The notes: generated by a model not told the origin, from the letters alone. DNA of 43,859 nucleotides from an uncultured Verrucomicrobiales bacterium (GCA_964542215.1 CAZITR010000001.1:1-43859); one strand, 5' to 3'. Numbered from the stretch's first letter, positions 1,212 through 18,300 are shown. Made by a program: numbers and translations.

Positions 1212-1348
1212 AGTCGTCAAAAGGTGGAATCCTAGCCTTTCTTTGAAAAAACGCCAGTCCTGAAAACCCTGGCGCGGGACATTTGCCATTTTCGAAGTCT
1301 TTACGCTGAAAGAGGCTCTTTTAGAATGGCGGGGCGCGTGGTAGGAAC

Positions 1349-1836: not shown

Positions 1837-1871
1837 GGCTCCCCGCCTCGTGGCGGGGAGCCGATTTTTTT
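1837..1871. terminator. Bidirectional intrinsic terminator between the convergent HTH gene and ardA.
   Basis: Perfect 11-bp GC-rich stem GGCTCCCCGCC (1837-1847) / GGCGGGGAGCC (1852-1862) with loop TCGT. It is followed by T7 on the plus strand (1865-1871) and, on the minus strand, preceded by A-run/stop and followed by TTTTGC. Confidence 0.65.
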
Positions 1872-2409
1872 AGTGGTTCATGAAGATGTGAACCTCGTCG
1901 AAGCGGGTTTGCATGGTGACGATGTCGCCGCTCATGTCCATGTCCCGCCCCATGCGCTCGTAGTCGATGTAGAATTGCAAGTGCTCGGGAATCTCGCTGG
2001 TGCTCTCGGTGATTTCCTGTGCGTAGTCCGCTATGCTGGAATAGCTGCCCATGTAATTTTCAAGGGCGCGTGTGGCGTCTTCGATGTCGCCGCAATAGTG
2101 ATCCAGTGCCAAGGTGCCGACTTCGCCGTGCTCCTCCATAAACTCGGCCAGCTCGTGGACTCGCTCGATACTCTCCCATTCGGAAAGGCGGATGCCTCCG
2201 AAGCCTTCAAAGTCATGAATTGCCCATTCTTCCGCGTGTGGGATTGGTGAGGCTGCCAAGACGTTGCGGATTCGGTTCCATGTTTCGTCGATGTCGTTTT
2301 CAATGTCGATCCATTCGCCGTGGAGGATTCCGCTGTTGTAGGCAGCAAGGCAGGCAACATAGATGCGGGGTTGGTCTTGGGTGGTGGTGATTTCTGCTGT
2401 GAGTGTCAT
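1870..2409 (-). CDS. ardA: ArdA-family antirestriction protein (a DNA mimic that inhibits Type I R-M enzymes).
   Basis: 179 aa. RIYVACLAAYNSGILHGEWI, EEWAIHDFEGFG and LQFYIDYERMGRDMDMSGD correspond closely to the Tn916 ArdA blocks YIANLGKYNEGELVGAWF, EEYAIHDYE and LQNYIDYQAYGRDLDLSG as I recall them. The protein is very acidic. A GGAGA RBS lies 8 nt upstream. Confidence 0.9.
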   Translation of the reverse strand: MTLTAEITTTQDQPRIYVACLAAYNSGILHGEWIDIENDIDETWNRIRNVLAASPIPHAEEWAIHDFEGFGGIRLSEWESIERVHELAEFMEEHGEVGTLALDHYCGDIEDATRALENYMGSYSSIADYAQEITESTSEIPEHLQFYIDYERMGRDMDMSGDIVTMQTRFDEVHIFMNH

Positions 2410-2559: not shown

Positions 2560-2640
2560 TGTGACGCGGCTGCACAAGTGAGCGCAAAAATACGACCTTT
2601 ACGGGTTCAAGCGGAGGGATGGATAATCCTGTGACGCGGC
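2560..2640. repeat. Two copies of an 11-nt direct repeat, TGTGACGCGGC, spaced 70 bp apart in the ardA upstream untranslated region.
   Basis: Exact copies at 2560-2570 and 2630-2640, each preceded by C[T/C]. No convincing ORF covers them. Confidence 0.6.
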
Positions 2641-2673
2641 AGCGGAAAACAGGCTTGGGGAACCCTGACCTTG

Positions 2674-2719
2674 GGGGCGCGTGCGCCCCGTGACTCAATC
2701 ATCAGGGCAATTGAGTGAC
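2674..2719. other. Two adjacent palindromic hairpin elements downstream of the HD-hydrolase gene and upstream of ardA.
   Basis: GGGGCGCGTGCGCCCC (2674-2689) is a GC palindrome. GTGACTCAAT (2690-2699) and ATTGAGTGAC (2710-2719) form a 9/10 inverted repeat around a 10-nt loop. Neither has a U-tract, so terminator function is uncertain. Confidence 0.5.
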
Positions 2720-2827
2720 AACGTGCCGGAGCTTGCGTAGGCGCGTCGAACTTGTTTGCCCCATCAGCGTGCGGCGGTTTCTGTGCCGAGACTAGCGCAG
2801 CGATGGAGGCTCTGTAACCGACGCGAA

Positions 2828-3253
2828 TCAGCCCATGGAAACCAAGCGTTTCCAGTGTTTGTGATACTTCGCAGTTCGCTTGAGGTCGTTCTCCGTGACG
2901 CGCTCAAGCTGCTTGAGGTTCATGTTGTCCTCAAGGTCTGCGATTTTGACTGCTCTGGCGACAGGGTTCGGAGCCAGACGGTCGATGAAATCCTTATAGG
3001 ATTCGCCGTCTCGGCGGGTCAGGCAATTCAGAGCTTCGATGAGTGCCTCGTCGAAGCCTTCTTTTCTCAAATCCTCAAATGTCCATTCAGTGTCCTCGAC
3101 AACGTCGTGGAGCACTGCCGCCATCTGCTGCAATTCGTCTTCGATCTGAAACATCAGTCGAAGGGGGTGCAGAATGTATGGGCTACCATCAAGCCGCGTC
3201 TGCTCTCTGTGGGCAGTCGATGCGATTTCAATGGCTCTGGCTAGGTTGGACAT
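2828..3253 (-). CDS. Stand-alone HD-domain protein of the RelA/SpoT hydrolase type: a small alarmone hydrolase (SAH) and putative (p)ppGpp/(p)ppApp pyrophosphohydrolase.
   Basis: 141 aa. AIEIASTAHREQTRLDGSPYILHPLRL (the RSH hydrolase N-terminal signature A..AH..Q.R..G.PY..HP), the HD dyad in AAVLHDVVEDT, and KIADLEDNMN (the KLADRLHN-like motif). No synthetase domain is present. Confidence 0.75.
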   Translation of the reverse strand: MSNLARAIEIASTAHREQTRLDGSPYILHPLRLMFQIEDELQQMAAVLHDVVEDTEWTFEDLRKEGFDEALIEALNCLTRRDGESYKDFIDRLAPNPVARAVKIADLEDNMNLKQLERVTENDLKRTAKYHKHWKRLVSMG

Positions 3254-3292
3254 TACTCAACCTTTCTTCCAGAAAACCACCCTCAAAGCGAC

Positions 3293-5419
3293 TCATTTCC
3301 GAGAAGCAACAATTCCATCGTAAAAGTAGCCTAAGATGAATTGATCGAATTCATCCAATGATTCGATGCTGCTTATTTTCTCATGCCCGACATCTGCAAA
3401 TTCTGAGATTACTTGGTGGATACTCTTTTCATCAGATTCCAAGTCGATCAGACTGGAATCCTGTATCTTTCTGGAGATGATCCTCGGAAGGCCATACTCT
3501 TCTAGCTGATAGACTAAAACAGGAAGGAAGGCGTGAGCGGCTTTGGCCGCAAAGGATGAAATATCAATCGTGCTGCCAAAAATTTCACGATTGATTGCAT
3601 TTATATCGTGCAGAAGCGTTGCAAGCTTGAAGGCGACATCCCGCTCAAGTTTGAAGAATTCATCAATTGCGATACCTCGACTCGCAGCTAACCTAATTGT
3701 TGCTGCAAGGCCTCGATTCCACCCCGAAGACATCACTTTTGCCGCTTCAACAATTTTAGTATATTGATGGCCTAAGTGTTTTAAGTGTTGAACCTTATAA
3801 AGAGCACTATCCCATCTGGAGGTGTCCGAGGAGTTGAGGTTTCGTAATTGGTTCCATGAATGTGGTTCTGCTTTGATTGAATTTACGATTTTCTTGGCTA
3901 AATCGTAGTCGGAACTCTGTAGAAATCCGCCCGAAAACAGGGTCTTCATCTGTTCGCTTGTCATCAATTCCTCAAGCTCTTCCTTATAGGCGATAATTAC
4001 CGCTATCTGCTCTTTCGTAAGATGACGCTCTTGTTCTTCCTCATCCATTGAGATCAAAAGACTCTCTGGGATATCGAGGGTGATTTGGGCGTCTTCATCC
4101 ACTGGAGGCTCTGCAAGGATATGCACATGGCCGACGAAGTATCTGAACATTCTCCCACCGCGTCCGGCGAGGTTCTTGTAATCGAATGACGTGAGCTTTG
4201 GCTGACCATTTTTATTATGCCAGACGACGACCCGTTCGGCCGCAGTATTTACACCTTCAATAATGGAGGAGGTGGAAATCAAACCTGCCAAACCTTCCTG
4301 TTCCTCAAAGAGCTTCACCTGTATCTGCGACAAAGACCGATGTAGACTGCCATTATGAATTCCATATTTTCGAGTAACCAAGTCTGCAAGGCTCCAGTCA
4401 GGTGAATAATTCTTACGAATCCATGCGCTAAATTGATCCAGTAAGCGGGTGGCGTGCGGGTCAGCACTTTCGCAAATCAGACTCATTAAGCGGTCAACCT
4501 CGGTGTATGTTCCTGCGTAAATGAGGGTCTTTGTATCCCCATTTTCCCGTCCTTCAACCAATAGCTTTTGGAGCACAACGGATTTCTGCTCAATTTTGGA
4601 ATCCTTTGAACCTTTTATATCAAGATACTCCTCGTAGGTCTTCAGGAACACTGTGGACATCTTGAATTCATGAAAGGTCATCCCTTGAGTAAAGACGCTT
4701 TCGGTAAGCGCAGTAATATTGGGTGCTAGGAAATACCGCTGCTTTGCTTTTTTGCTCAGTTCGAGAATTGCTTTCAGAAGAATAAGCGCACGCTCATCGG
4801 ACTTTCTCTGCGCGAATGCCTCGCTAGCTTTGTAAAACTCATCGACGATTAAGATGTCGATCTCATCTAGTTTGTCCAAATACCCGAATGCTCGCTCTTG
4901 GGGAAAGATGAGTATGTTTCTTTCTGCAAGAGGAACATCAGATGTCGTAATTACCTTATACAGCGATGAGAATTTTTTCGTTAGTCGTCTCCGTGCCTCG
5001 TCCATCAACGCAATTGTAGGCACGATAATGACGACGGTTCTTGGCTGCTTGATAGCTATAAACGAATCAATAACGAAGCTCTTTCCAAAACTGGTAGGAG
5101 CACTGATTGCCATATCCCGCCCTTCGAGCAACATGCGTAGAAGCTGAGATTGGTCTTTATGGAGCGTTTTGGGTTCTTCTTCTCCTGTATCCACCTTGAA
5201 AGCCTCATGGACGAGGCGATCCTCCCAGATTGAGGAGTCTGGGTCGATGTAGTGAAAGAACCCCAATCTTCGGGACAGATGATTCACGAGCTCATCGGGT
5301 TTCGAATTTGCCTTGTGAATTTTGTCCAATACGCGGATAAGCTCCTCACGAGCGTTATCCTCATCACCGGATTCGATGAGGCGATTTATCTGGGCGCATT
5401 CTTCGAAGAACATACTCAT
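3293..5419 (-). CDS. hamB: Superfamily-2 helicase, Hachiman HamB-like.
   Basis: 708 aa. Motif I SAPTSFGKS (K113), Ia IIVPTIALMDE, II LIVDEFYK (D193-E194), V ISTSSIIEGVN, VI NLAGRGGR. The C-terminal ~280 aa are helical with no motif I recognise. The start ATG shares one base (5419) with the stop codon of the upstream nuclease-like gene. Confidence 0.8.
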   Translation of the reverse strand: MSMFFEECAQINRLIESGDEDNAREELIRVLDKIHKANSKPDELVNHLSRRLGFFHYIDPDSSIWEDRLVHEAFKVDTGEEEPKTLHKDQSQLLRMLLEGRDMAISAPTSFGKSFVIDSFIAIKQPRTVVIIVPTIALMDEARRRLTKKFSSLYKVITTSDVPLAERNILIFPQERAFGYLDKLDEIDILIVDEFYKASEAFAQRKSDERALILLKAILELSKKAKQRYFLAPNITALTESVFTQGMTFHEFKMSTVFLKTYEEYLDIKGSKDSKIEQKSVVLQKLLVEGRENGDTKTLIYAGTYTEVDRLMSLICESADPHATRLLDQFSAWIRKNYSPDWSLADLVTRKYGIHNGSLHRSLSQIQVKLFEEQEGLAGLISTSSIIEGVNTAAERVVVWHNKNGQPKLTSFDYKNLAGRGGRMFRYFVGHVHILAEPPVDEDAQITLDIPESLLISMDEEEQERHLTKEQIAVIIAYKEELEELMTSEQMKTLFSGGFLQSSDYDLAKKIVNSIKAEPHSWNQLRNLNSSDTSRWDSALYKVQHLKHLGHQYTKIVEAAKVMSSGWNRGLAATIRLAASRGIAIDEFFKLERDVAFKLATLLHDINAINREIFGSTIDISSFAAKAAHAFLPVLVYQLEEYGLPRIISRKIQDSSLIDLESDEKSIHQVISEFADVGHEKISSIESLDEFDQFILGYFYDGIVASRK

Positions 5420-6348
5420 CAGTGCTCCTTCTCCTCTTTGACTCTAGAAATGTATGCGTCTAAGATTTCTTCTTTCTTCGGAACTGGAAACAGTATCAGC
5501 GTGAAAGAAATCTGGTCATACTTGGTGATGTTCTGGAGCTGCTCGATTTGCTTTTTGAAGAATGCATTCGCTCGCTCTTTGTGATGCTCAATCAGCTCAT
5601 CTCTAAGCGCATCATCGAAATCATTCTTTCCCGCGACGATGTCACACTCATGCAATATAAATATGGGAATATGAAGCTTAGGTTTTAAGCGGTCGGTGGT
5701 GGTATCTTCGTCGAGCAGATGCTTTAGCTCTTCGAGCATGTCAGGATCGCTGATGTATTTACCTAACTGACATACGCCAGTAATGATTGAGTTTTCTTTC
5801 CTGATTTTGTTTGGGTCTAAAGAATTGCCGACTGACTTAATAATTTCAGCAAGGCGCGCATTCTCGATTGAGTTGTAAAATTTGGCTTCGCCATACCAAA
5901 TTTGAAAATCACCGTCCGCCACCGTGATGTGGACGCTATCAGCACCCTTCGCGTTATCTTTGACATTCTGCTTATAGAAAATCTTAGGAACTGCGGGAAT
6001 AGCGCCAAAGTGCTTCCTCATGATTCCATATAAGAAAATCTCTGCCAACTCACTCCCTGCGCCCTTTGTTTCTGCCGTCTCATCTTTCGTAAGACGCATC
6101 CTAGATGCCGCTCGACCTAAAGCTGTGGCATGGTCACCTGCAAGAGCCTCTCGTTCTTCCTCCGAGAGAGCCGTTTCTGCCACATTATCCCAAACAAATC
6201 TGTGGAATGCTTTCGCTCGCCATATTCCTCCCTCATAGTCGTTACAAAAGCTAAGCAAGTTCTTGCGGTCAATAGGTGCCAGAGAAGAATCCTCGCAGAA
6301 ATTTGCGAATGCTTCGTCTATGACGATGTTAAACTTGGTGGAGGACAT
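5419..6348 (-). CDS. hamA: DUF1837-like protein with a PD-(D/E)xK-type motif arrangement, Hachiman HamA-like effector.
   Basis: I place the start at ATG 6348 (MSSTKFNIVIDE), 22 nt after the hsdR stop, giving 309 aa; the track ORF start at 6426 would overlap hsdR. Motifs are GAGSELAEIFLYG (E100), KGADSVHI (D137) and WYGEAKFYNS (E154-x-K156). It is paired with an SF2 helicase, as in Hachiman. Confidence 0.7.
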   Translation of the reverse strand: MSSTKFNIVIDEAFANFCEDSSLAPIDRKNLLSFCNDYEGGIWRAKAFHRFVWDNVAETALSEEEREALAGDHATALGRAASRMRLTKDETAETKGAGSELAEIFLYGIMRKHFGAIPAVPKIFYKQNVKDNAKGADSVHITVADGDFQIWYGEAKFYNSIENARLAEIIKSVGNSLDPNKIRKENSIITGVCQLGKYISDPDMLEELKHLLDEDTTTDRLKPKLHIPIFILHECDIVAGKNDFDDALRDELIEHHKERANAFFKKQIEQLQNITKYDQISFTLILFPVPKKEEILDAYISRVKEEKEH

Positions 6349-6370
6349 TTGATTTCTGGTTTTGGGATAC

Positions 6371-9300
6371 CTATATCTGCCCACCGACGCCCTTAAACTT
6401 CTCCACGAATGTAGAGATTTTCTCAAACACGGTTTGCTTCTTCGTTTTGTATTGCGGGTTGAGCGGACTCATTTTGGGGAGCGCGGCATTGAGTGCAGTG
6501 CCATTTTCAGTCGCGTATTCCCGCTTCAAGGATGCCTTGATGTAGCGCCTCGCCTCTTCTTCATTCAGCCCTTCGGACTGGATCAGTTCAACAGCCTCAC
6601 GCTTTTGTTCCTTCTGAGCGAACTTGAAGAACGTATCAATCACAGTGGCTTTGTCGCCGATGTCGTCGAGGTTCGTCTGATTGATAAAATCGACAATCAA
6701 GCTTTCCTTCGCACGACTCCCAATGCTGGCTCGGATTACACGGCGCACTTCATCGATGAGGTCTTCCTTGTTCTTAGTCTTCTTGTTGTGCTCAAATATC
6801 AGCTCCAGAATGTAGTCGAGGTTGATCTCTTGGGATTTCAACAAGTCCACCTCAAAGACGACATCATCCCAATCCACGGTTGATGGCTCTTTTTGGTCGC
6901 CTTCCTTCTGGCGTCTTAGCCAGTCACGGGTGTCATTGTAGGTTGAGCGGTAGTCTTGAACCAGTCTATCAGATGGCACGTCGATCTTTCGCATCGCCTC
7001 AATGTCGTCATCGTTCAGGTAATGCTTCGCCTTAAATTCTTCGACGGCTTCTTCATCTTCGAGGTCAATGTCCTGCAAGGCATTCAGTCCTGTAAATTCA
7101 TCATAGTTACGCAGAATGTTCTCCACGCGGAGGTATTCTCCGAAGAGCTTTACGAACGCCTTCTTGTCCTGTTCTTTCTCAATCTCGCTCGGCTCCGGAA
7201 AACGTTCCTGCAACTCAGTAACCACATCCACATAACCACGGCACGCCTTTCCGGTGGCAATGTCCGTAAAGCCTTCCATGTATTCTTTGTAGCTCTTCTC
7301 CAGAACCACGTTCTTGGTATTCGCATTCCCGAAGAGCGTAATTGCATTGATCGTGCTCTGTTCCAAATCGCGGAAGGTCACGATGTTGCCGAAGGTCTTG
7401 GTCGCGTCATAGATGCGATTGGTGCGCGAATACGCCTGTAGTAGGCCATGGTAACGCAGGTTCTTGTCTACAAAGAGTGTGTTAAGCGACGGGGCGTCGA
7501 AGCCTGTCAGGAACATGCCTACGACGATAAGTAAGTCCACTTCTTGCTTTTTAACCCGTTGTGCTAGGTCGCGGTAATAGTTCTGGAAGCCCTTACTATC
7601 GACGCCAAAGTTCGTTTTGAAAGTAGCATTGTAGTCACCAATCGCCGCGCTGAGAAATTCCTTTGCGCTGCTGTTCATGGCCGATACTTCGAAACTCTCA
7701 TCAGGAATATCGCCGACAGCGTCCTGCTCTTCATTGGCCGCAAAGGAGAAAATGGTCGCCACGTTGAGGCGTTTTTTGTCCTCCACTCCAGCTTGTAGCT
7801 CACGAAATGCCTCATAGTAGGCTTTCGCTGCATCCACACTGCTGACTGCAAACATGGCATTGAAGCCCTTTGCTCCCATGTGAGCACGGTGCGTCTTATG
7901 TGAGAAATTCTTTAGGACATAGCCGGAAATCTCATGAATTCGATCAGGGTGAAGTAGTGCCTGTTTGTTTTCCGCAGCCGTGAGCTTTTTCTCATCTTGC
8001 TCGGTTTCGATAGCTTGGAACCTAGGGCGCACATCATTGTAATCCACTTTGAACTTGAGCACTTTTTCGTCTCGTATGGCATCCGTTATGACATAGGAAT
8101 GCAACTCACGCCCAAAGACACTGCCCGTAGTCTCGGCACCGGAAGCGTTCTCTGGGAAGATCGGCGTGCCCGTAAATCCGAATTGGTAATACCGATTAAA
8201 CTTCTTTTTGAGGTTTTTCTGCGCTTCCCCGAATTGGCTGCGGTGGCACTCGTCAAAAATAAAGACGACTTGCTTATTGTAGATAGGCAGGTCGCCTTCT
8301 CCCCGCATCAGGTTGTTGAGCTTCTGGATGGTGGTGACGATGATCTTGTTGTCGTCTTTCTCGATATTACGCTTCAGCCCAGCCGTGCTATCAGAGCCAT
8401 TCACGCTGTCGGGCGAGAAGCGTTGATATTCCTTCATCGTCTGGTAATCGAGGTCTTTGCGATCCACCACGAAGAAAACCTTGTCGATAAACTCCAGTTC
8501 GGTGGCCAAACGTGCCGCTTTGAAGCTAGTGAGCGTCTTGCCTGAACCTGTGGTGTGCCAGATGAAGCCACCACTCTCGGCCTTGCTCCAGTTCTTCGCT
8601 TGGAACGCGCTCTTGATCTTCCACAAAATGCGTTCTGTTGCCGCGATCTGGTAGGGGCGCATCACTAGCAGCGTGGCGCTCACATCAAAAACCGAATATT
8701 TCAGAAGCACTTCCAGCAGGGTGTGCTTCTGAAAAAAGGTCGCAGTAAAGTCCTTGAGGTCTTTAATTAGGGTATTGTCCGACTGCGCCCAGTTCATAGT
8801 AAAGTCGAAGCTGTTTTTGTTTCGCTTTACCGTATTCGCGAAGTAACGGCTGTCTGTGCCGTTCGAAATGACAAAAAGCTGTAGATACTTGAAGAGAGAG
8901 TTCTCTGAATTGAAGCTCTCCTTGCTATAGCGGTGCACTTGATTAAAAGCTTCGCGGATCGCAACGCCGCGCTTCTTCAGCTCCACCTGCACCATGGGCA
9001 AGCCATTCACGAGAATGGTTACGTCATAGCGATTGGCATGGCTGCCTGACTGCTCAAACTGCTTGATGACCTGAAGCTTGTTGTTGAGCACATTTTTCTT
9101 ATCGAGCAGGTAAATGTTCTCAATATGCCCATCATCGAAGACAAAATCTTTGATGTAGTTCTCATGCAACTTACGAGCCTTGTCTGTGCTGTTTTCACTG
9201 GCAGGATCGAGGTATTGCTCAACGAAGCGCTTCCACTCATCCTCTGTGAATACCATGTCGTTCAGTTCCTGAAGCTGCGCGCGCACATTAGCCAGCATAG

Positions 9301-9475
9301 CTTCAGGCGTGCGGATTTCCTGCGCATATTCGTAGCCTTGATTGACCAAATCCCCAATAAACTCACGCTCAAGTGCGTCTTCACTCTGGTAATCCTCGCC
9401 GACTACGCTGTCCCGCTCGTAACGATCTAGGACGATGAAGTTCTTGGATTCTGCGATGGTTTTGTAGCTAGTCAT
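6371..9475 (-). CDS. hsdR: Type I restriction enzyme R subunit (Type IC-like).
   Basis: 1034 aa. N-terminal PD-(D/E)xK-like nuclease segment [20 protein letters not shown]2 motor motifs [13 protein letters not shown] and [12 protein letters not shown], and later [14 protein letters not shown]. The start overlaps the stop of the upstream gene (ATGA at 9472-9475). Confidence 0.95.
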
Positions 9476-10740
9476 GTTGCAGTTACTGTCGGTTGGGCAG
9501 GCTGTGCGCCGTCTCGTCTGAAATGAAAGCGGTTCTCCTGATTGATACTATCCGCAAGGAATCGGAGGACGCGCTTGTCTTCCTCATCCAAATCTCGGAT
9601 TTCATCCCCCGCATGCTTGGAATGACTTCCCCAGTTTACGATGCGCTTGGCGTAGGCATCCGTTGTGCCGTCACTTGTTCTGGGCAAAAGCTCTTCCCAG
9701 TTTTTGTAGCCGAGGAAGGTTGAGGTCTTCTCCAAGATGTTCCGCAAGAAATTGAAATGATATTTGTGAATTTGCCCCGCCTCTATCGCTCTATTCAACT
9801 CAGCATTTAGAAAGAGGTGATAAGAGAATGGCGAGTCTGTGGGCTGGTCTTCCAAATCTGCAGTGCCATCCTCGAATTTAACCAGCTTGTGTTTACTGAA
9901 CTGCTTGGCCTTCCATCCAAGCTTCTTATCGTCTCGGCTAAATTCGTTGCACAGAACGTTGTAAAAAAGTGGGTTGTGCGTTGTTACAATGAACTTCAGC
10001 CCCTGAAGGTCATAAAAATGACTACGCTTGATGAGCGTCGCGATGTCCACGGCCAGTCGGATCAAGTGATTGTCATCCAAAGAGCTGACGGGGTCATCAA
10101 TGAAAATATACTTTAGGTCGTTAAACTGGTCGGTGTCGCGTTCATCCACTTCAGTAATATTCAGCGTTTCGACCACCTGATCGATCAAGGTGTAAAACAC
10201 GCTCCAGATGAAATTGCTCTCTTCCCCCTTGGAAAGCTTGATGTTTTCTTCCTGCTGCTGATTTCCTCGCTCAAACGAGAATGTGACCTCGGAGTTTTTA
10301 GGCACTTTTCTGAGAACATTCCCATCCTTGCCCTTGATTTCATATGCTTCGTTGAAGTGCGGCGTGAGCTTGTCGCTAGTATAATATTGGAAGTTACTGA
10401 TTATGTTTTGATCCTGCCCCTGATCGTTCAAAACCCAGCTCGTAAAACCATTCGGCTGTATGATGAGTTTGGGGGCAATATCTTCGGTTAAGTCGTTATC
10501 CCAATAAAACAGGTCTTCTGTGAACGCATTGTAGTATAGGATTTTTGGGAGAACGGTATCCGGTTCTTCATCTTCTGCTTCTTCTATATTCACAGGGGCT
10601 TTGGGCGCGACACGTTCTTTGAATTTCCGAGATAGGCGTGTTTTCCCGCTCCCATTGAAGGCGTATATGAGCTGCACCTTCTTCTCACTTGCCTCAAGTT
10701 GCTGGGCGATGGTTTCTAGTGTCTGGCTCATTTCAAGCAA
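9472..10740 (-). CDS. prrC: PrrC-like protein: an ABC-type ATPase N-domain fused to a putative anticodon-nuclease C-domain, embedded between hsdS and hsdR.
   Basis: 422 aa. Walker [10 protein letters not shown] (30-34), ABC signature-like LSKGEES (169-175), Walker [13 protein letters not shown] (211-222), H-loop VTTHN (252-256). The C-terminal region has R333-x3-E337 (FLRNILEK) and H373 (NWGSHSKH), resembling the Arg/Glu/His triad I recall for E. coli PrrC. The position hsdM-hsdS-X-hsdR is identical to the classical prr locus. Confidence 0.75.
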
Positions 10741-11890
10741 CTACCTCCCTTGGCTCTTCGGGTGTCGGAAAGCTCAACAACAAAGCACGGTAATACTCAT
10801 ATTGCTTCTGCCTCAGCTCGATCTCCCGAGGGAGGCCGTCGCTAATCGAGCTAGTGAGTGTATCAAATTTATCTAAAGTGCCGACAATGAGTTCCTTTCT
10901 CTCAGGCGATGGATTAGGAATTCTGATGCTGTTTAAATTCTTTTTGTTTAGTTTGGGTTGCGCAGCTCCTGATATGTATGGAGTTAGATCAATACCATTC
11001 AGATAATATTCTACGTAACGCCGCTCATGGTATGTTTCGAACCTAAGGACATGGGCATGATTGTTTACCCAACTTTTACCGCTGACGCTAAAAGCAATGG
11101 GAGTTTTTCTTGCTGTCAGGTTAGCACCATCTTCCGAAACTAACAGGAGATCTTCATCAAAGATATAGTCTTTAACGTAATCAACTACGCCTGATGCGCC
11201 GTAATATGGAATATCACCTGTTTCTCTTAGCCCTCCTTTAACAGGCTTTCGCTGAGAGTCCAAGTTTTCCGCAAGTTCGCCCAACGCTTTCCATTCAACG
11301 TCTCCCTCGTCAAAGGTCAGGAGCTTATTACGATAGTAGTTGTATTGCTTTCGTCGCGCTTTAAGCTCGGTCGTAAGCTCGGTCGTAAGCTCGGTGAAAG
11401 TGTCTAAGATGCGGACGATTTCCGCTTGGATGGCCAGCGACTTTTTAGGGTTATCTGGGCATGGGATGGGGATTTGAAGATTTACTATTTCACTTTTTTT
11501 CAAAGCAGGAATTCCTGCTCCATGCTGACAGTTTGTGAGCTTTTCTTGATTGAGCTTTAGGAAATGAAAAACATAGCGGTTATCGACAATCTCGAGCCTT
11601 GGAAGAACCACATAGCAGTGTGCATTTGCGTAGAATTTTGAAGTCACAAAATTGACGAAACCTGCTGAAGCTCCACCTTGACTGATTATCGTAGTGTTCT
11701 CGGAATAATTATAGCTGTCAGTGAAGCCAGAGTATGAAATACCACCGTTGTATGCTGGGAATAACCCCTCCTTAGACAACAACTCTTTATTGAGTTGTTT
11801 GCCTTTCTCTAGATCAACAGCGTCTCCGAGAGGAGACCACGTCACCTTCTCTCCATTGAGCAGCCTGTCTATAAAGATGCTGTTACTCAT
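10733..11890 (-). CDS. hsdS: Type I restriction enzyme specificity subunit.
   Basis: 385 aa. Two target-recognition halves, each followed by a conserved helical segment (…[30 protein letters not shown]… and …[20 protein letters not shown]…). It overlaps hsdM by 4 nt and the prrC-like gene by 8 nt. Confidence 0.9.
11362..11396 (-). repeat. 12-bp tandem repeat (about 2.9 copies) encoding TEL(T/K) x3 in the central spacer helix of HsdS.
   Basis: The plus strand reads taagctcggtcg taagctcggtcg taagctcggtg. The minus-strand translation is [16 protein letters not shown]. Confidence 0.9.
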
Positions 11891-13449
11891 GCCTCGCTCC
11901 CTTCGATTTCAGCAACTATGGCATCGATGTCCTTGCGAAGCCCGTCGATCTTGCTGACGGTTGCCTCAATTTCTTGATTTAGTTCCGTGATATTAACGAC
12001 TTCACGTGTATCCTTGGCTTCCACGTATGTGCTGACCGAGAGGTTGTAGTCGTTTTCTTCCGCAATGGCCTCCATGCGAACAGATTTAGCGACATGCTCC
12101 ACATCCTCCTTGCGGTCGAAGAGCTTCATAATCTCTTCGACATGGTCATCCGTCATCACGTTATTATTGGTCTCTTTCTTGAAAAAGCCCTCGCCGGAGG
12201 CATCGATGAACTGAACCTTGGTGTCAGTCTTGTGCTTGGAGAGCACGAGAATATTCACGGCAATCGTGGTGCCATAGAAGAGATTTGGCGCAAGAGAGAT
12301 GACGGTCTCCACGAAGTTGTTATCCACCAAGTATTGGCGAATTTTTTGCTCTGCGCCACCACGATAGAAGATGCCAGGGAAGCAAACGATGGCAGCTCTG
12401 CCCTTGCTCGAAAGATAGTTGAGCGTATGCAGCACGAAGGCGAAGTCCGCCTTGGACTTGGGAGCCAACACACTAGCCGGAGCAAAGCGGTCGTCATTAA
12501 TGAGTGTCGGATCATCACTGCCGATCCATTTCACCGAGTAAGGTGGATTGGAAACAATCGCATCGAAGGGCTTATCATCGCGAAAGTGCGGATCAGTCAG
12601 CGTATTGCCTAGCTGCATGTTGAACTTATCGTAGTTCACATCGTGCAGAAACATGTTCATCCGCGCGAGGTTGTAAGTCGTGTGGTTGACCTCCTGCCCA
12701 AAGAAGCCTTCTTCAATGAGGTGGTCATCCATGTGCTTTTTCGCCTGTAGGAGAAGTGAACCAGAACCTGCGGCTGGATCGTAAATCTTGTTTACGCTCG
12801 CTTGACCATGGATGGCAAGCTGAGCGATGAGCTTGGAAACATGCTGAGGCGTGAAGAATTCGCCTCCAGATTTTCCGGCATTAGCGGCATATTTGCCGAT
12901 CAGAAACTCATAGGCATCGCCGAAAAGATCGATTTCACTGTCCTCAAAGTGACCAAAGTCGAGTTCATTGACCCCCTTCAAGACTGACGCTAGACGGCTG
13001 TTCTTGTCCTTAACCGTTTTTCCCAAGCGATTGCTGGTGGTGTCGAAGTCATCAAACAATCCCTTGATGTCCTCCTCTGAGTCATAGCCCATGGCTGAGC
13101 TCTCAATGGCGGTGAAAATAGCCTTGAGGTCAGTGTTCAGGTTTTCGTTATCGTTCGCATTCTTGACTACATTGACAAAGAGCTGACTGGGGTAGATGAA
13201 GTAACCCTTGGTCTTGATCGCGTCTTCTTTAATCGCCGCAAGGTCTTCATTGTCATCGGCTATCTCCGCGTAGCGGAAGCTGTCGTCACCGCCTTCGATG
13301 TAGCGAGCAAAGTTCTCGCTAATGAAGCGGTAGAAAAGTGCCCCCAGCACATATTGCTTGAAGTCCCATCCGTCCACTGTTCCTCGCACATCGTTGGCAA
13401 TCTGCCAGATGCGACGTTTGAGTTCCTCGTTTTGTTGTATGCTGGTCAT
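11887..13449 (-). CDS. hsdM: Type I restriction enzyme methyltransferase subunit (N6-adenine).
   Basis: 520 aa. SAM-binding [11 protein letters not shown] and catalytic [11 protein letters not shown] (NPPY). The N-terminal HsdM helical domain begins [23 protein letters not shown]. Confidence 0.95.
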
Positions 13450-13707: not shown

Positions 13708-15010
13708 TTGGATGATGACCACCACGCGGTAGCGGCTGCCCAGTCGCTCGCTCAATGGGAGCGGCAACTGACGAAGCAACGCGTCGCCGACAAGATTGCT
13801 GAGCGAAGCAAGCGCGGTTATTGGAATGGCGGGAATCCGCCATTCGGATACGATTACAGCAAGGATGAGAAGCTTCTGCTCCCGAATAAGCAAGAAGCTC
13901 AAATCGTCGCCAATGTCTTTGAACTCGTCGCGCAATACGGCTCTCCGACTGAGATTGCCAAACAACTCAACAAGGACGGCATCAAGACCAAGTCATTCTT
14001 GGCCACCAAGAAAGACGGCAAAACGAAGATGATGGGCGGCAAGCGTTGGGTTGGCCAAAACGTCACTCGGCTCGTTCGCAATGCCATTTACAAGGGTGTC
14101 ATCGTTCACGGAGACAATGAGTATGAGGGACGGCACAAGGCTCTGGTCGATGCCAAGCTCTGGGAGAAAGCGAATAAAAAGCTGGTTGAAAATCAGCCTG
14201 CTCAATCTCCGACGCGGAGGAGCAATCGCCATGAAATGCTCCTGAAGGGCATTCTCAGGTGCGACCATTGCAATCGCTTTCTTGTGCCAAAGCCTGCTGG
14301 CAAGAAAGACAAGGACGGCAACCCATACCTTTATTACACCTGCGGCGACCTGAACAAACACGGCAAGAAAACCGATTGTGTTCTGAGAAATATTCCTGCC
14401 CGTGCGTTTGAAGATTTCATCATCAAGTTACTGGCTGAGCTTGGAAAGCATCCCGACGTGGTCAAAGCAACCGCTGAAGCTGCGAAGCGGGAGCATAAGG
14501 AAGCTGTGAAGCCATTTGAGGCCAAGCTCAGAAAGGTCGCGAAAGAGCTGGATGAAGCATCAAAAGAAGTCGCCTCGCTCATCGACATGGCCAAACGGCC
14601 AGAGATGAAGAATCTGTCGGGTGAATTCATGGCGGAGGCCGATGCGCTCGGGAAGCGAAAGAGTGACTTGCAGGTGGAGCGCCAGAAGCTCCAGATGGAA
14701 ATCGACTATCGGCGTTCGCTGGTGGTCGATGAAACCATCCTCTACAAGAACCTGACCGAGTTTGCTGCTCTCTTTGAAAAGCTTACTTTCGAAGAAAGGG
14801 CGGAGCTGGTGAGCCTGCTTTTCAAAGAGATTCGGGTGTCGCGTTTCGACCCCGAAAAGGACGAACATTCCTGCGATCCAGACGTATTCGTAACCAAAAT
14901 GCGAACTTCATGGTATCGCGTGGATTTGAGAATGTTCTCAAAGTCCTTCAACATGAAGGACTTGCTGGGAAAGTGCGAGCTGGAACCGGAAGTTCGCAAT
15001 AAGAATAAAA
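13708..15010 (+). pseudogene. Large serine recombinase lacking the N-terminal catalytic (resolvase) domain. The recombinase domain, zinc ribbon and coiled-coil are retained.
   Basis: The ORF opens with an alternative TTG, and the first recognisable residues (AAAQSLAQWERQLTKQRVADKIAERSKRGYWNGGNPPFGYDY) correspond to the end of helix E and the start of the recombinase domain. Also present are NAIYKGVIVH, zinc ribbon CDHCNRFL...YYTCGD...C, and a long coiled-coil (KLRKVAKELDEASKEV...). No Ser-nucleophile region exists upstream: an in-frame stop lies at 13642-13644. The 3' end is uncertain because the frame runs on without a stop to 15435. Confidence 0.8.
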
Positions 15011-15030
15011 GTGGCGGAGAGGGTGGGATT
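15010..15030. repeat. Direct repeat of the tRNA-Ser 3' end (an att-type island junction). Its partner copy is at 15194-15214.
   Basis: AGTGGCGGAGAGGGTGGGATT is identical at 15010-15030 and 15194-15214. The second copy includes the CCA end, discriminator base, 3' acceptor strand and part of the T-arm of the tRNA. Confidence 0.85.
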
Positions 15031-15195
15031 GATTTTGTTCCGCAGTCGCGGAACTCCATCTGTGCCGATTGCTCGCTGTGCTCGTATTATATCAGTCCCG
15101 CAGACAGCGGGACGAAGGGCGCTCGAACTGCGTTCTCATCCCACCCTGTATATTCAAAAGCCCTGCCACGCTTCGCTTGTGGCTTGGATTTTGAG

Positions 15196-15283
15196 TGGCG
15201 GAGAGGGTGGGATTCGAACCCACGATGCCTTGCGGCATGCCGGTTTTCAAGACCGGTGCATTCGACCACTCTGCCACCTCTCC
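15196..15283 (-). tRNA. tRNA-Ser (anticodon UGA), type II with a long variable arm and an encoded CCA.
   Basis: The reverse complement GGAGAGGTGGCAGAGTGGTCGAATGCACCGGTCTTGAAAACCGGCATGCCGCAAGGCATCGTGGGTTCGAATCCCACCCTCTCCGCCA folds by hand. Acceptor GGAGAGG/CCTCTCC; anticodon stem CCGGT/ACCGG with loop CTTGAAA; variable stem ATGCC/GGCAT; T-arm GTGGG-TTCGAAT-CCCAC. Confidence 0.95.
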
Positions 15284-15331
15284 GGAAACGTGCCCCTAAC
15301 TTCCCCCGGCTCGGGCAATGCGCAACAAAAA

Positions 15332-18300
15332 CTATTTTTTCGACTCGCTTTCCGCCGCCGCCGGCTCGCCCTCGGGCTGGATCAATACGGGGAGGGCCTT
15401 GTCACCGCCGAGATATTCCTTGGCCAATGCATTGATCTCATCCAGTTGGATCGCCTCGTAGTCCGACACAAAACTACGCGCCCAGTCCAGCCGTTGCGGG
15501 TACTCCTGGCTGCTCTGCATCACGCTATTCATCCAGTAGCGGTTGGTTCTCCGGTACTCCTCGATTTGGTTGATCTGCGGTTTTTTCGCCCTCTCCAATT
15601 CATCCTCCGTGACCGTACCGGCAGCCAAGCCCTCGCCGATTTCCCTCACCACACCCGTCAACATTTGGGCCTGGTCCGGTTTGGATGTTACCGCGGCAAA
15701 AAGGTATCCGTAGCCTTCGAACACATCGCTCGGCAGATTGTGGGCAAAGGGGCTGTAGGCATCCCCCAACTCCTCGCGCACTTTCACCCGCAGGCGGTCG
15801 TCCATCACCAGCGCCAGCACGCTCAGGCGGCGGGTCCGTTTGATGTCCCAGATATCCTCAGTCGGCCAGTACACCAGGGACATGGCTTTCGGAATCGCTG
15901 TCTCCACACCGAAGGTCTGCTCCTTGACATCCCGGGGGAAGGCGACCTGGCGCTGCTTCTCGTAAGAGGGCTTTTTGTCCTCGCGTTTTTCCAGGTTGCC
16001 AAAGGTGGCCAACACTTCGGCGATCATTTTCTCCATCTCAAAATCGCCGACGACCGTGAGCTCCAAATAGGAACTGGCAAGCGGCTCCTGCAACCACTCC
16101 CGGACATCCTTCGCCGTCAGTTTCTCCATCTCCTCCTGTGGGGGGAACCCAAAGCGGGGATCCCCGCTGTGCAAGAACTGACTCACTGCACTTTGCATCA
16201 CCCCTTGGGGAGTCCGCTCGATCTGTCGGTAGATTTGATCCATCCCCCGCCGAAACAAGGCAGCCGCTTCCGGACGGTATCCCGGATCGGTGAAATAAGC
16301 CCGCATCAACAGCAACTGATCGTGCAGGTCATCCGCGTTGGTCTGGCCGCTCATGGCAAAGGCGTCGTCCTCCACACCGAAGCGCACCGAGGCCGTCACC
16401 CCTGCGTAGATGCGTTTGATTTCGTCAATGCTGTGCTCGCCCAAACCCCCGTCGGCAAAAGTGTTGCCGGCAAAAAACGCCAGCCCCGATTTGTCCTTGG
16501 GTTCCACCAGGCGGCCGCCACCAAAACGGGCCTTCACATGGACTGTTTCATCCTCAAAATCAGTCACTTTCAGGTTCACCCTCACACCATTTTCCAACAC
16601 CAACTGGGTCACCCCGAGATCCTCCACCACTTCTTTCTTGGCAACCTTGCCGGGTGCCGGGAGTTCGCTGTAGGCAAAGGCCTGTTCCTCCTGTAAAACC
16701 GGTGGCTCCACTGCAACTGCCTGGCTTGCTTGGTAGGCAGCCAAAATCGTGTCCTCGGCATTCTCAAGCTCCAGATTGCCGGTGATCAACACCAGTTTTT
16801 CCCCGCCCCCATCCCAAGCCTCCTTCAGTAGTGCCTGGCATTCCCCGGCGGTGATTTTTTCCAACTCGGCCTCCACCCGCCGCAAGTCATCCGCCGGACT
16901 GGTGAATACTTTCCTGCTACCAAGGTGGCTGGCGATCGCACTCGACAAATCCCTGGATTTCCGGGTTCCCATCGACTTGGCCTCTTGGCTATACGCTTCC
17001 AAAACATTCGCCTTGGCCTCCTTCAACTCCGAAGCGGTGAATCCAAACTCCAAAGCCTGCCTCAGCTCTTTGTCTGCGGTCTCCAGCGCCTCCCGCCAGT
17101 TCTCCGGACGGCAAGTCACCTCGAGGGAGGCATAGCGGACAAACCCGAGATTGTAGAGGTCATAAATATGGGAGGCACCACTCAAAATCGCCGCCTCTTC
17201 CTTCTTAGCCAGAATTTCCAGTCGCCGGGAGATAATCCGGTTGGCCAGGGCCAGACGCAAGTCCTTGGCACGTCGCTGCAGCGAGTCGCCCCCCTCGTCC
17301 ATCGGTTTCATGGTGTCGATAGAGACCGACACTTCGCCCGCCTCTGGCTCGGGATGGAAATGGGCAGCCAGCCCCCGCGAAGTCAACTTGCCGAGGTCTG
17401 GCTCCGCCGCCTTCCCGCCGGGTTTCAAATCCGAAAACACTTCTTTGATAGAGGTCTCGATCGCCTCCTCATCCACGTCACCCACCACGATCAGAGCCAT
17501 CCGGTCGGGCGTGTACCATTTCTGGTAGAACTCCACAAAGCGTTCCCGCGGGGCATCCTCGATGACCTCTTCCTTCCCGATCGGCAAACGGCTGCTAATC
17601 AACGCGTCCGGCAGGATAAATTTCAATTGCTCCACAAACGTCCGCCAACCCACGGAGTCCCGCGTCCGTTTTTCGCTCAGGATCACGCCACGCTCTTTCT
17701 CGATCGCCTGCTCTTTCAACAACATGCCGTCGGCGTAGTCACGCAACAATTGGAATCCCTGTGACAACAGCTCGGGATCCGAGTCGGGCATCTCCAGTTT
17801 GTAAACCGTCTCCTTGAACCCGGTGTGGGCGTTGGTGTCCGCCCCGAAAGCCATCCCCAGCCGTTGGAAATACTCCACCATCTCACCATCGGGAAAATGT
17901 TTTGACCCGTTGAAAGCCATGTGCTCCAGAAAATGCGCCAACCCCTGCTGGTTGTCCTCCTCCATCAGCGAACCCGCGTCGACAAACAAACGCATGCTGA
18001 CCCGCTTGGGTGGCTCGCTGTTCTTCATGATGGCGTAGCGCATCCCGTTCTCCAACAGTCCCCACTTCACCGCCGGGTCGGGCTTGATGTCGCTACCCTC
18101 CTGTGCCAGGGGGATCGGACTGGTTTCTTGTGAAACCGCCTGTGCCGCCTCCGGCTGCCCAGCAGAGCCTTCCTTGGTCATGTCGGGGGCGCTTGCCTTC
18201 TCGTTGCTGCTCTCCTTGGACAAAGGTTCTTTTTGGGGAGATTCCCGCGGTGCTTCCCGGCAAGCCTGCGCAGAAAACAACAAGGTGAGGGCCAAAGTCA

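What the first reader, a model, noticed from the sequence alone, without database searches (positions are those of the whole stretch)
3293..6348. Nuclease-like + SF2 helicase two-gene module (Hachiman-like): main candidate defence system
Seen in sequence:
- Two genes are coupled so tightly that the stop TGA of the first and the ATG of the second share base 5419.
- Gene 1 (309 aa from ATG 6348) has a PD-(D/E)xK-style arrangement: E100 in GSELAE, D137 in GADSVH, and E154-x-K156 in GEAKFY.
- Gene 2 (708 aa) carries SF2 helicase motifs: APTSFGKS, VPTIALMDE, LIVDEFY, STSSIIEGVN, AGRGGR.
- Gene 2 also has a ~280-aa helical C-terminal region that I cannot assign.

Established knowledge: a DUF1837 protein (HamA) followed by a helicase (HamB) is the Hachiman anti-phage system. 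There the helicase senses aberrant DNA and licenses the nuclease.

Inference: this pair is a Hachiman-type module. My DUF1837 assignment is from memory of its motif pattern, not from a search. If it fails, the pair would be an unclassified nuclease-helicase defence module.

Context supports a defence role. The pair lies in an AT-rich cassette, directly (22 nt) behind a Type I restriction gene, on a tRNA-linked island.
Basis: partly seen in the sequence, partly recalled or inferred. Interest (0 to 1): 0.8.

Follow-up and report, generated by a model that had tools for sequence, protein, structure and literature searches.

The report
Hachiman anti-phage nuclease-helicase gene pair
The two overlapping genes are an intact member of the known Hachiman (HamA nuclease plus HamB helicase) anti-phage system, unusual only in sitting at the tail of a Type I restriction-modification/PrrC operon on a genomic island.

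Summary
ORF 5419..6348(-) (309 aa) matches Pfam HamA/DUF1837 (E 8.4e-55) and a PADLOC HamA model end to end (E 1.8e-122). ORF 3293..5419(-) (708 aa) matches PADLOC HamB models end to end (E 3e-207). The TGATG overlap at base 5419, the 22-nt gap after hsdR, every quoted motif and the low G+C are all as described.

Predicted structures have the solved Hachiman chains as best PDB matches: 8zue_A and 8vx9_A for HamA, 8zue_B for HamB. E100, E103, D137, E154 and K156 in HamA, and helicase motifs I, II, V and VI in HamB, are invariant in relatives. dN/dS is 0.03-0.09. The hamA-hamB pair is adjacent in every related locus long enough to show both genes, across several phyla and in varied contexts.

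The unassigned C-terminal region is most likely the winged-helix/ratchet part of a Ski2/Hel308-type helicase. No OB fold is predicted.

The pair is therefore a new member of a known kind: a stand-alone, apparently active HamA with a short, AbpB-like HamB.

One mildly new point: this close subclade lies directly behind unrelated Type I R-M operons in 4 of 6 distinct contexts, against 4 of 74 in the wider family. This suggests co-transcription or co-selection, which is untested.

The parts
5419..6348 (-). hamA: 309-aa DUF1837/HamA PD-(D/E)xK-type nuclease effector. Putative catalytic residues are E100, E103, D137, E154 and K156.
   Evidence: Pfam PF08878 E 8.4e-55. PADLOC HamA1 PDLC00158 E 1.8e-122, residues 3-308 on profile 3-306/307. 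AF2 model pLDDT 79.5 with helix-strand-strand-strand-helix core. Fold matches 8zue_A E 4.6e-8 and 8vx9_A E 2.7e-5. Catalytic residues invariant.
3293..5419 (-). hamB: 708-aa SF2 Ski2/Hel308-like helicase (sensor/ATPase). It has an N-terminal helical bundle (about residues 1-75), two RecA domains (about 85-440) and an all-helical C-terminal region (about 450-705).
   Evidence: PADLOC HamB2 PDLC00201 E 3.2e-207 (residues 3-704 on 19-719/721) and HamB1 PDLC00180 E 4.1e-199. Pfam DEAD 6.5e-12. PDB 8zue_B E 1.3e-47 with the single sequence and 3.2e-77 with the profile. AF2 model pLDDT 83.8. Foldseek 8zue_B E 9.2e-22, TM 0.67/0.73; then PolQ helicase, Hel308 and Hjm.
5417..5430 (-). hamA/hamB junction: AAGGAG Shine-Dalgarno-like sequence, then TGATG in which stop and start share base 5419 (translational coupling).
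   Evidence: Sequence read. In relatives with both genes intact, gaps between hamA and hamB run from -17 to +7 nt.
6349..6370 (-). 22-nt spacer between the hsdR stop and the hamA start. No terminator-like or promoter-like site was found here, which is consistent with read-through from the R-M operon.
   Evidence: The scan uses sigma-70 and intrinsic-terminator consensus patterns only, so it is weak evidence.
6371..13449 (-). Context, not part of Hachiman: hsdM (11887..13449), hsdS (10733..11890), prrC-like anticodon-nuclease gene (9472..10740) and hsdR (6371..9475). Coding regions overlap one another. Together they form a Type I R-M plus PrrC locus directly upstream of hamAB and co-directional with it.
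   Evidence: Pfam N6_Mtase 1.8e-115, Methylase_S 1.1e-45, AAA_13 4.1e-19, HSDR_N/SWI2_SNF2/EcoR124_C. PADLOC PrrC 2.6e-136, REase_I E 0.

Best explanation
The pair is a two-gene Hachiman (HamAB) anti-phage system.

Shown here:
- HamA is a DUF1837 protein with the fold of solved HamA chains and a complete, invariant acidic-helix / D / E-x-K motif set.
- HamB is a Ski2/Hel308-like SF2 helicase with intact ATPase motifs.
- The genes are translationally coupled, always adjacent in relatives, under strong purifying selection, and located in a low-G+C island among other defence genes.

Inferred by homology to characterised systems (ECOR31 HamAB, DEC14B HamAB, S. thermophilus HamAB, K-12 AbpAB):
- HamA and HamB form a 1:1 complex through the N-terminal helical bundle of HamB, which keeps the nuclease in check.
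- When HamB engages abnormal DNA produced during infection (free ssDNA ends, damage or replication intermediates), it binds and hydrolyses ATP. This licenses HamA to degrade DNA non-specifically, phage and host alike, which aborts the infection.

HamB here is the short, AbpB-like form with no predicted OB fold. The activating DNA species (ssDNA 3' ends as in ECOR31, or dsDNA/SSB/damage as reported for AbpAB) is therefore the least certain step.

The pair is probably transcribed with the upstream hsdM-hsdS-prrC-hsdR genes, giving three layers in one operon-like array: restriction, a tRNA-cleaving backup, and DNA-integrity-triggered abortive infection.
For: - Family membership: (Pfam and PADLOC, full length).
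- Fold: HamA to 8zue_A and 8vx9_A; HamB to 8zue_B, PolQ helicase, Hel308.
- Sequence link to a solved Hachiman helicase.
- HamA catalytic residues: E100, E103, D137, E154, K156 are invariant. They have the same order and nearly the same spacing as residues shown essential in S. thermophilus HamA (D90, E93, D127, E147, K149; PMC13064477). They correspond in motif to ECOR31 E138/K140 (PMC12278908) and DEC14B E150/K152 (PMC11914072).
- HamB motifs: I (K113), II (D193/E194), V and VI are invariant.
- Synteny: hamA-hamB are adjacent in all 37 genome loci and in every further contig long enough to show both genes.
- Selection: dN/dS 0.03-0.09.
- Island context: G+C 0.45 against 0.60; PrrC, Type I R-M and ArdA as neighbours; bounded by a class II aminoacyl-tRNA synthetase gene and tRNA-Ser.
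- Mechanism taken from the literature.
Against: - No experiment exists on this protein pair or, as far as I found, on any member of this exact subfamily.
- Neither the single HamA sequence nor a narrow subfamily profile reaches any solved HamA by sequence. The link rests on Pfam/PADLOC HMMs and on predicted fold, with modest scores (TMq 0.61 to 8zue_A, 0.41 to 8vx9_A).
- The closest solved HamA domain (AbpA) is the catalytically dead kind, and HamB barely matches ECOR31 HamB by sequence (E 2e-3). Transfer of the ECOR31 activation model is therefore indirect.
- The heterodimer was not modelled.
- No promoter was identified, so co-transcription with hsdR is unproven.
Confidence: 0.9

Rival explanations
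1. The pair is not an autonomous system. It is a functional extension of the Type I R-M/PrrC operon, co-transcribed and mechanistically coupled with it. For example, HsdR-made breaks or translocation intermediates on phage DNA could load HamB, or HamAB could act as a backup when restriction is inhibited. This is compatible with HamAB identity; it differs only on autonomy.
For: - The spacer is 22 nt, with no terminator or promoter consensus between hsdR and hamA.
- All six genes are co-directional, and within the R-M block coding regions overlap.
- The same hamAB subclade (81-93% aa identity) lies 5-263 nt behind Type I R-M genes in 4 of 6 distinct contexts. Three of these involve mutually unrelated R-M families (HsdR 22-25%, HsdM about 28% identity).
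- The rate in the wider family is 4 of 74 (Fisher p = 6e-4, or 4e-3 if the two related R-M contexts are merged).
- There is a precedent for an upstream system controlling Hachiman expression in one operon: pezAT-hamAB, 18-bp spacer (PMC13064477).
Against: - The same subclade also occurs without an upstream R-M gene: a T5orf172 gene lies upstream in L040 and L047/L048.
- About 95% of the wider family has no R-M gene nearby.
- HamAB systems characterised elsewhere work alone.
- Defence genes cluster for reasons unrelated to mechanism.
- The sample is small and the contexts are not fully independent.
Confidence: 0.15
2. The pair is an AbpAB-type (Hachiman 'type I-B') system, in which the DUF1837 domain is only a scaffold and another nuclease does the cutting.
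For: The best solved matches for both proteins are the AbpA and AbpB chains of 8zue.
Against: - HamA is 309 aa with only the HamA domain and no N-terminal Cap4-like nuclease domain.
- It aligns only to the C-terminal part of the long AbpA-like PADLOC profiles (267-515/542).
- The D/E-x-K residues that AbpA lacks are present and invariant here (PMC11914072).
- No other nuclease gene is consistently adjacent.
Confidence: 0.03
3. The pair is a housekeeping or repair helicase-nuclease (Hel308/PolQ-like), or a decaying remnant, with no defence function.
For: HamB resembles Hel308 and PolQ helicases in fold.
Against: - Distribution is patchy across Verrucomicrobiota, Proteobacteria, Bacteroidota and CPR, with different neighbours.
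- The G+C content is foreign to the flanks.
- The neighbours are defence genes.
- ORFs are intact, motifs are invariant and dN/dS is 0.03-0.09.
Confidence: 0.02

Closest known systems
Hachiman 'type I-A' as defined by Cui et al. 2025 (HamA = DUF1837 only, active site conserved), e.g. E. coli DEC14B HamAB (PMC11914072)
   Same: Two genes, hamA then hamB. HamA consists of the DUF1837 domain alone with conserved D...E-x-K. HamB is an SF2 helicase with a Walker A lysine. By homology, the complex should show ATP-dependent, non-specific DNase activity.
   Different: HamB here is much shorter before the helicase core: Walker A K113, against G272/K273/T274 in DEC14B. The sequences are too distant for direct alignment with the tools used.
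E. coli ECOR31 HamAB (PDB 8VX9/8VXA/8VXC/8VXY; Tuck et al. 2024, PMC12278908)
   Same: HamA fold (Foldseek probability 1.00, E 2.7e-5). E-x-K catalytic motif. N-terminal helical bundle in HamB. Ski2/Hel308-like core.
   Different: The ECOR31 HamB chain is 1174 residues and has a C-terminal OB-like barrel. The window HamB is 708 aa with an all-helical C-terminus. It matches 8vx9_B only at E 2e-3 over about 50 residues. Motif II is DEFY here and DEGH in ECOR31.
E. coli K-12 AbpAB (YfjL/YfjK; Hachiman 'type I-B'; PDB 8ZUE)
   Same: This is the closest solved relative of both proteins. HamB scores 3.2e-77 with the profile (profile positions 7-522) and TM 0.67/0.73 over the whole length. The lengths are similar (708 and 729 aa) and both have motif II DEFY. 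The HamA model best matches the DUF1837 part of AbpA.
   Different: AbpA carries an N-terminal Cap4-like nuclease domain and a catalytically dead DUF1837 domain. The window HamA has no extra domain and keeps all catalytic residues.
S. thermophilus PezAT-HamAB (Tian et al. 2025, PMC13064477)
   Same: hamAB is appended about 20 bp behind another system in one operon. The HamA essential residue pattern D90/E93 ... D127 ... E147-x-K149 parallels E100/E103 ... D137 ... E154-x-K156 here.
   Different: The upstream partner is a toxin-antitoxin pair, not a Type I R-M/PrrC locus. It belongs to a different Hachiman clade (III-B).
E. coli prr locus (EcoprrI hsdM-hsdS-prrC-hsdR with the PrrC anticodon nuclease)
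   Same: The gene order hsdM-hsdS-prrC-hsdR is the same. The PADLOC PrrC model matches at 2.6e-136, and HsdR has the EcoR124-type C-terminal domain.
   Different: To my knowledge the classical locus has no Hachiman pair behind hsdR. This rests on memory; a literature search found nothing on the combination.

Membership tests
Hachiman (HamAB) | HamA contains a DUF1837 / PF08878 domain | tested here: met
   Pfam HamA E 8.4e-55, 186.6 bits against cut-off 25, profile 2-230/230. 23 PADLOC HamA models hit, best 1.8e-122.
Hachiman (HamAB) | HamA adopts the restriction-endonuclease-like fold of solved HamA | tested here: met
   In the AF2 model (pLDDT 79.5, pTM 0.84), the only PDB matches with E <= 1e-3 are 8zue_A and 8vx9_A. 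TM scores are modest (0.61 and 0.41 on query length).
Hachiman (HamAB) | Conserved catalytic D ... E-x-K (plus upstream acidic helix) in stand-alone HamA | tested here: met
   E100, E103, D137, E154 and K156 are invariant in 18 and 35 relatives. The order and spacing match experimentally essential residues in S. thermophilus HamA. Spatial clustering in the model was not measured.
Hachiman (HamAB) | HamB is an SF2 (Ski2/Hel308-like) helicase with intact ATPase motifs | tested here: met
   PADLOC HamB 3.2e-207, full length. Pfam DEAD. PDB 8zue_B, PolQ, Hel308. Motifs I, II, V and VI invariant.
Hachiman (HamAB) | hamA immediately upstream of hamB on one strand, conserved as a pair | tested here: met
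   1-nt overlap here. Adjacent in 37/37 genome loci, with gaps of -17 to +7 nt where both genes are intact. Also adjacent in every metagenome contig long enough to show both genes.
Hachiman (HamAB) | HamA and HamB form a heterodimer through the HamB N-terminal helical bundle | not tested
   The HamB model has four N-terminal helices (residues 5-73), consistent with such a bundle.
Hachiman (HamAB) | Protects against phage; ATP-dependent DNA degradation | not testable with these tools
   Needs plaque assays and biochemistry.
Hachiman type II (PADLOC: HamA2-HamB2-HamC) | A third gene, hamC, next to the pair | tested here: not met
   The flanking genes (141-aa HD protein, ArdA, HsdR, PrrC) give no HamC hit in PADLOC. 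HamB scores slightly higher on a HamB2 model than on a HamB1 model (688 against 662 bits), and HamA slightly higher on HamA1 than on HamA2. The models therefore do not discriminate the types here.
AbpAB / Hachiman type I-B | HamA homolog with an N-terminal Cap4-like nuclease domain and a DUF1837 domain lacking the (D/E)xK residues | tested here: not met
   The protein is 309 aa with only the HamA domain. It aligns to positions 267-515/542 of the long PADLOC model. The catalytic residues are present and invariant.
ECOR31-type Hachiman (III-A of Tian et al.) | Long HamB with a C-terminal OB-like barrel | tested here: not met
   The DSSP assignment of the HamB model shows only helices after residue 452. 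The profile match to 8vx9_B is E 2e-3 over about 50 residues.
Type I R-M with embedded PrrC (prr-type locus), context only | hsdM-hsdS-prrC-hsdR order with a PrrC-family ATPase/anticodon nuclease | tested here: met
   (PrrC PDLC02360 E 2.6e-136; AAA_13; HsdR with EcoR124_C). PrrC catalytic residues were not checked.

The most novel reading that the evidence does not exclude
This hamAB subclade is a cassette that is preferentially recruited to the 3' end of Type I R-M operons. It is found behind three mutually unrelated Type I R-M families, with 5-263-nt spacers. It would be co-transcribed and functionally coupled with restriction, for example by using HsdR-generated DNA ends or stalled translocation complexes as the HamB trigger, or by acting as a backup when restriction is inhibited, as PrrC does. 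It would also be an experimentally unstudied Hachiman form: a stand-alone active HamA with a short AbpB-like HamB lacking an OB fold. Its activating ligand may differ from that of ECOR31 HamAB.
Probability: 0.15. Interest if true: 0.5.

Novelty: new member of a known kind. Interest (0 to 1): 0.22.

Why it matters
As a Hachiman system it adds little. PADLOC-type tools would call it automatically, and thousands of relatives of about 50% identity are already annotated as DUF1837/HamA proteins and DEAD/DEAH helicases.

Two points have modest value:
1. It documents a six-gene, single-strand array that stacks three defence logics: restriction, a PrrC anticodon-nuclease backup, and DNA-integrity-triggered abortive infection. 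It also gives comparative evidence that the hamAB cassette has moved between unrelated Type I R-M operons. This makes a testable case for transcriptional or mechanistic coupling between restriction and Hachiman.
2. It represents a subfamily I found no experiments on: an active stand-alone HamA with a short AbpB-like HamB. This subfamily bridges the two structurally studied forms and could show which features of HamB set the activating DNA signal.

Tried and rejected
- phmmer of HamA against PDB sequences gave no hit. A narrow 18-sequence subfamily profile gave only chance-level hits. Residue-by-residue mapping onto solved HamA was therefore not possible, and I relied on fold search and on published motif patterns.
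- NCBIfam has no model matching HamA, and gives only sub-threshold helicase hits for HamB.
- The promoter/terminator consensus scan of 2700-7000 found nothing above shuffled expectation and nothing informative at the hsdR-hamA junction. The host is probably not an organism with typical sigma-70 promoters, so this neither supports nor excludes an internal promoter.
- I looked for a HamC or other third component; none was found. The 141-aa HD protein 39 nt downstream is conserved only in the near-identical MAG locus L001, so it was rejected as part of the system.
- I looked for the second copy of the tRNA-Ser 3' repeat to define the island's far end. The only copies are 15010-15030 and 15194-15214, so the left boundary (about 1220-1330) rests on G+C, gene content and the end of homology with L001.
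- The phage collection has no HamA relative. The plasmid collection has seven distant records, at most 49% identity.
- A literature search for Hachiman together with Type I restriction/hsdR found no paper on the linkage.
- Rfam finds only the tRNA in 1-16000.
- The + strand ORFs inside the region (74-110 aa) were not pursued. They lie antisense to genes under strong purifying selection.
Full report
**1. Observation.**
The ORF scan shows 3293..5419(-) at 708 aa. It also shows 5419..6426(-), which is 335 aa from a TTG and 309 aa from ATG 6348.
- On the minus strand the junction reads GAGCAC-TGA-TG. Stop (5421-5419) and start (5419-5417) share base 5419, and an AAGGAG lies 5 nt upstream.
- hsdR ends with TAG at 6373-6371, 22 nt before ATG 6348.
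- PADLOC HamA profiles align from residue 2-3 of the 309-aa form, and relatives start at the equivalent position. ATG 6348 is therefore the likely start.
- All quoted motifs are present at the quoted residue numbers.
- G+C is 0.45-0.46 across the pair, against 0.58-0.61 in the flanks.

**2. Identity.**
- HamA matches Pfam PF08878 (HamA/DUF1837) at E 8.4e-55 over the whole profile. It matches PADLOC HamA1 PDLC00158 at 1.8e-122, end to end.
- HamB matches PADLOC HamB2 PDLC00201 at 3.2e-207 and HamB1 PDLC00180 at 4.1e-199. Pfam sees only the DEAD/ResIII core.
- NCBIfam has no specific model.
- No HamC-like gene is adjacent, so this is the two-gene form.

**3. Structure.**
An AlphaFold2 model of HamA built on 35 sequences has pLDDT 79.5 and pTM 0.84. 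Its core runs helix 99-114, strands 139-144, 147-152 and 154-158, then helix 163-176. This places E100/E103 on the helix, D137 just before the first strand and E154-x-K156 on the third strand, which is the classical PD-(D/E)xK layout.

Against the PDB, the only matches with E <= 1e-3 are the two solved HamA chains: 8zue_A (E 4.6e-8, TMq 0.61) and 8vx9_A (E 2.7e-5).

The HamB model has pLDDT 83.8. It best matches 8zue_B, the K-12 AbpB/HamB chain (E 9.2e-22, TM 0.67/0.73 over 729 columns). Next come the PolQ helicase domain, Hel308 and Hjm over essentially full length (TM 0.55-0.61).

I therefore infer that residues about 450-705 correspond to the winged-helix/ratchet/helical region typical of Ski2/Hel308-like helicases. 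DSSP shows only helices there, so no OB barrel is predicted.

By sequence, a HamB subfamily profile hits 8zue_B at 3.2e-77 but ECOR31 HamB (8vx9_B) only at 2e-3. HamA reaches no solved chain by sequence.

**4. Conservation and selection.**
- In 18 genome-derived and 35 database-derived relatives, HamA residues E100, E103, D137, E154 and K156 are invariant.
- HamB motifs I (A107-S114, including K113), Ia, II (D193-E194-F-Y), V (T383...N391) and VI (G419-R420...R423) are invariant.
- The HamA pattern has the order and spacing of the residues shown essential in S. thermophilus HamA (D90, E93, D127, E147, K149). It also fits the E-x-K pairs mutated in ECOR31 (E138/K140) and DEC14B (E150/K152).
- Against relatives of 81-93% amino-acid identity, dN/dS is 0.03-0.09 for both genes.

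**5. Distribution.**
- A scan of one genome per species found 37 loci, all with hamA directly followed by hamB. They come from Proteobacteria, Bacteroidota, a CPR bacterium and one Opitutales MAG. That MAG (L001) carries the same island at 98.1% nucleotide identity over window 1327-13754.
- The protein database holds about 2,800 relatives of each protein. Those that carry a source name are called 'DUF1837 domain-containing' or 'HamA C-terminal domain-containing' protein, and 'DEAD/DEAH box helicase'.
- Neighbours differ between loci.
- Seven plasmid records and no phage record carry relatives.

**6. Mechanism (inferred).**
Published work on ECOR31 HamAB, DEC14B and K-12 systems and S. thermophilus HamAB agrees on these points:
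- HamA is inactive or insoluble alone.
- It forms a 1:1 complex with HamB.
- The complex degrades DNA non-specifically in an ATP-dependent manner.
- Both active sites are required for defence.

In ECOR31, entry of a 3' ssDNA end into HamB triggers ATP hydrolysis and activation of HamA, and DNA damage alone can trigger it. For AbpAB, dsDNA stimulates the ATPase. The title and abstract of PMC10732053, seen, report activation by phage SSB or host DNA damage.

The window's HamB is AbpB-like in length, motif II (DEFY) and lack of an OB fold, whereas its HamA is the active stand-alone kind. I take the general mechanism as very likely and the exact trigger as open.

**7. Context.**
All genes from 13449 down to 1870 are on the minus strand:
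- hsdM (11887..13449)
- hsdS (10733..11890)
- a PrrC-family gene (9472..10740; PADLOC PrrC 2.6e-136)
- hsdR (6371..9475; EcoR124-type C-terminal domain)
- hamA and hamB
- a 141-aa HD-domain gene (2828..3253)
- ardA (1870..2409)

The island is bounded on the left by a class II aminoacyl-tRNA synthetase gene (1216 to 2, minus strand). On the right lie a serine-recombinase gene that lacks its catalytic N-terminal domain (from 13708), a 21-nt duplicate of the tRNA 3' end (15010-15030 and 15194-15214) and tRNA-Ser.

The 'tRNA-linked island' statement is therefore reasonable, but the island's far attachment repeat was not found.

**8. The one non-routine finding.**
Within the close subclade (HamA 81-99% identical), hamAB lies directly behind Type I R-M genes in four distinct contexts:
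- The window, L001 and L049 (hsdR, 22 nt).
- L038/L039. HsdM and HsdR are 90% identical to the window's, but hsdS and the accessory genes differ. The 263-nt spacer contains a remnant of an hsdR 3' end.
- L045 (HsdR only 22% identical; 21-nt spacer).
- L043/L044 (gene order hsdR-hsdM-hsdS, then a 57-aa ORF, then a 5-nt spacer; HsdR 25% identical).

Nucleotide homology to the window stops within a few bases of the hamA start (6337-6355) and shortly after the hamB stop.

Other subclade members have a T5orf172 gene upstream (L040, L047/L048) or an unidentified gene (L046).

In the wider family only 4 of 74 loci with at least 1 kb of upstream sequence have R-M-like genes within 5 kb (Fisher p = 6e-4, or 4e-3 if the two related R-M contexts are merged). 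The sample is small and the contexts are not fully independent.

This suggests cassette exchange at the 3' end of Type I R-M operons, and possibly co-transcription. It does not show functional coupling. An operon fusion of Hachiman behind another system, with regulatory consequences, has a precedent in pezAT-hamAB. A literature search found nothing on Hachiman linked to Type I R-M.

**9. Verdict.**
The pair is a genuine, intact Hachiman system.

It is a new member of a known kind, in a subfamily that annotation tools already recognise. No experiment on this subfamily turned up in the papers I read. Interest is low to modest. The residual novelty lies in the R-M-operon association and in the combination of an active HamA with a short AbpB-like HamB.

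Noticed in passing
window 9472..10740 (-): A 422-aa PrrC-family ATPase/anticodon-nuclease gene sits between hsdS and hsdR, as in the classical E. coli prr locus (PADLOC PrrC E 2.6e-136; Pfam AAA_13). Its coding region overlaps both neighbours. Catalytic residues were not checked.
   Followed up: partly
L038 8017-11081; L045 9066-12121; L043 9072-12124; window 3293-6348: The same hamAB subclade (81-93% aa identity) lies directly behind mutually unrelated Type I R-M operons (HsdR 22-25% identity) in 4 of 6 distinct contexts. The rate in the wider family is 4 of 74 (Fisher p = 6e-4). Nucleotide homology ends at the hamA start and just after the hamB stop.
   Followed up: partly
L038 7765-7989 (spacer between hsdR and hamA); window 6371-6547: The 263-nt hsdR-hamA spacer of L038 contains a remnant of an hsdR 3' end. 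Window 3268-6547 (hamB, hamA and the last ~60 hsdR codons) aligns to it as one 87% block, whereas the rest of hsdR aligns at 82% to the real L038 hsdR. This suggests the cassette was exchanged by recombination within the hsdR 3' end.
   Followed up: partly
L038 2026-3036 and 4228-4611; L045 3750-4754: The accessory slots inside related Type I R-M operons are filled by different genes: RhuM and PDDEXK_3 in L038, RhuM in L045, PrrC in the window. HsdM and HsdR stay 90% identical between the window and L038.
   Followed up: no
window 2828..3253 (-): A 141-aa HD-domain protein (Pfam HD_4 E 1e-5, just below the gathering score; RelA/SpoT-hydrolase-like by eye) starts 39 nt after hamB on the same strand. 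It is conserved only in L001 and has no PADLOC hit. Its function is unknown.
   Followed up: partly
window 1870..2409 (-): An ArdA anti-restriction gene (Pfam ArdA E 7.2e-44), whose family inhibits Type I R-M enzymes, lies on the same island and strand as a Type I R-M operon. This is typical of conjugative or integrative elements, but it raises the question of how the resident R-M enzyme escapes inhibition.
   Followed up: no
window 13708..15435 (+), 15010-15030 and 15194-15214: A large serine-recombinase ORF lacks the N-terminal resolvase catalytic domain (Pfam hits start at residue 62 with the Recombinase domain). Homology with the Opitutales MAG island stops at 13754, near the start of this ORF. 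A perfect 21-nt repeat of the tRNA-Ser 3' end lies 184 nt from the tRNA. Together these look like the scar of an older integrative element into which, or next to which, the defence island was placed.
   Followed up: partly
L001 187-2645: In the Opitutales MAG, the sequence upstream of hsdM is different from the window. It encodes a PP2C_2 phosphatase (E 1.9e-36) and a protein-kinase-domain protein (E 3.7e-10) instead of the recombinase and tRNA. The same 12.4-kb block therefore sits in two different surroundings.
   Followed up: partly
L040 618-1817; L047 3-263; L048 1-56: In three subclade contigs the gene immediately upstream of hamA is a T5orf172/MUG113 (GIY-YIG-like) protein, 81% identical between L040 and L047. 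This is a second recurrent upstream partner.
   Followed up: no
L003 1572-2409; L004 10927-11274; L006 10927-11389: In three genome loci (MAGs), hamB appears 5'-truncated or split: the gap after hamA is 346-836 nt and the ORFs are 421-585 aa. These may be pseudogenes or assembly errors.
   Followed up: no
L041 4360-5307 (-): An EcoRII-C-domain restriction enzyme gene (E 2.3e-62) lies convergent with and downstream of hamAB in one subclade contig, another defence neighbour.
   Followed up: no
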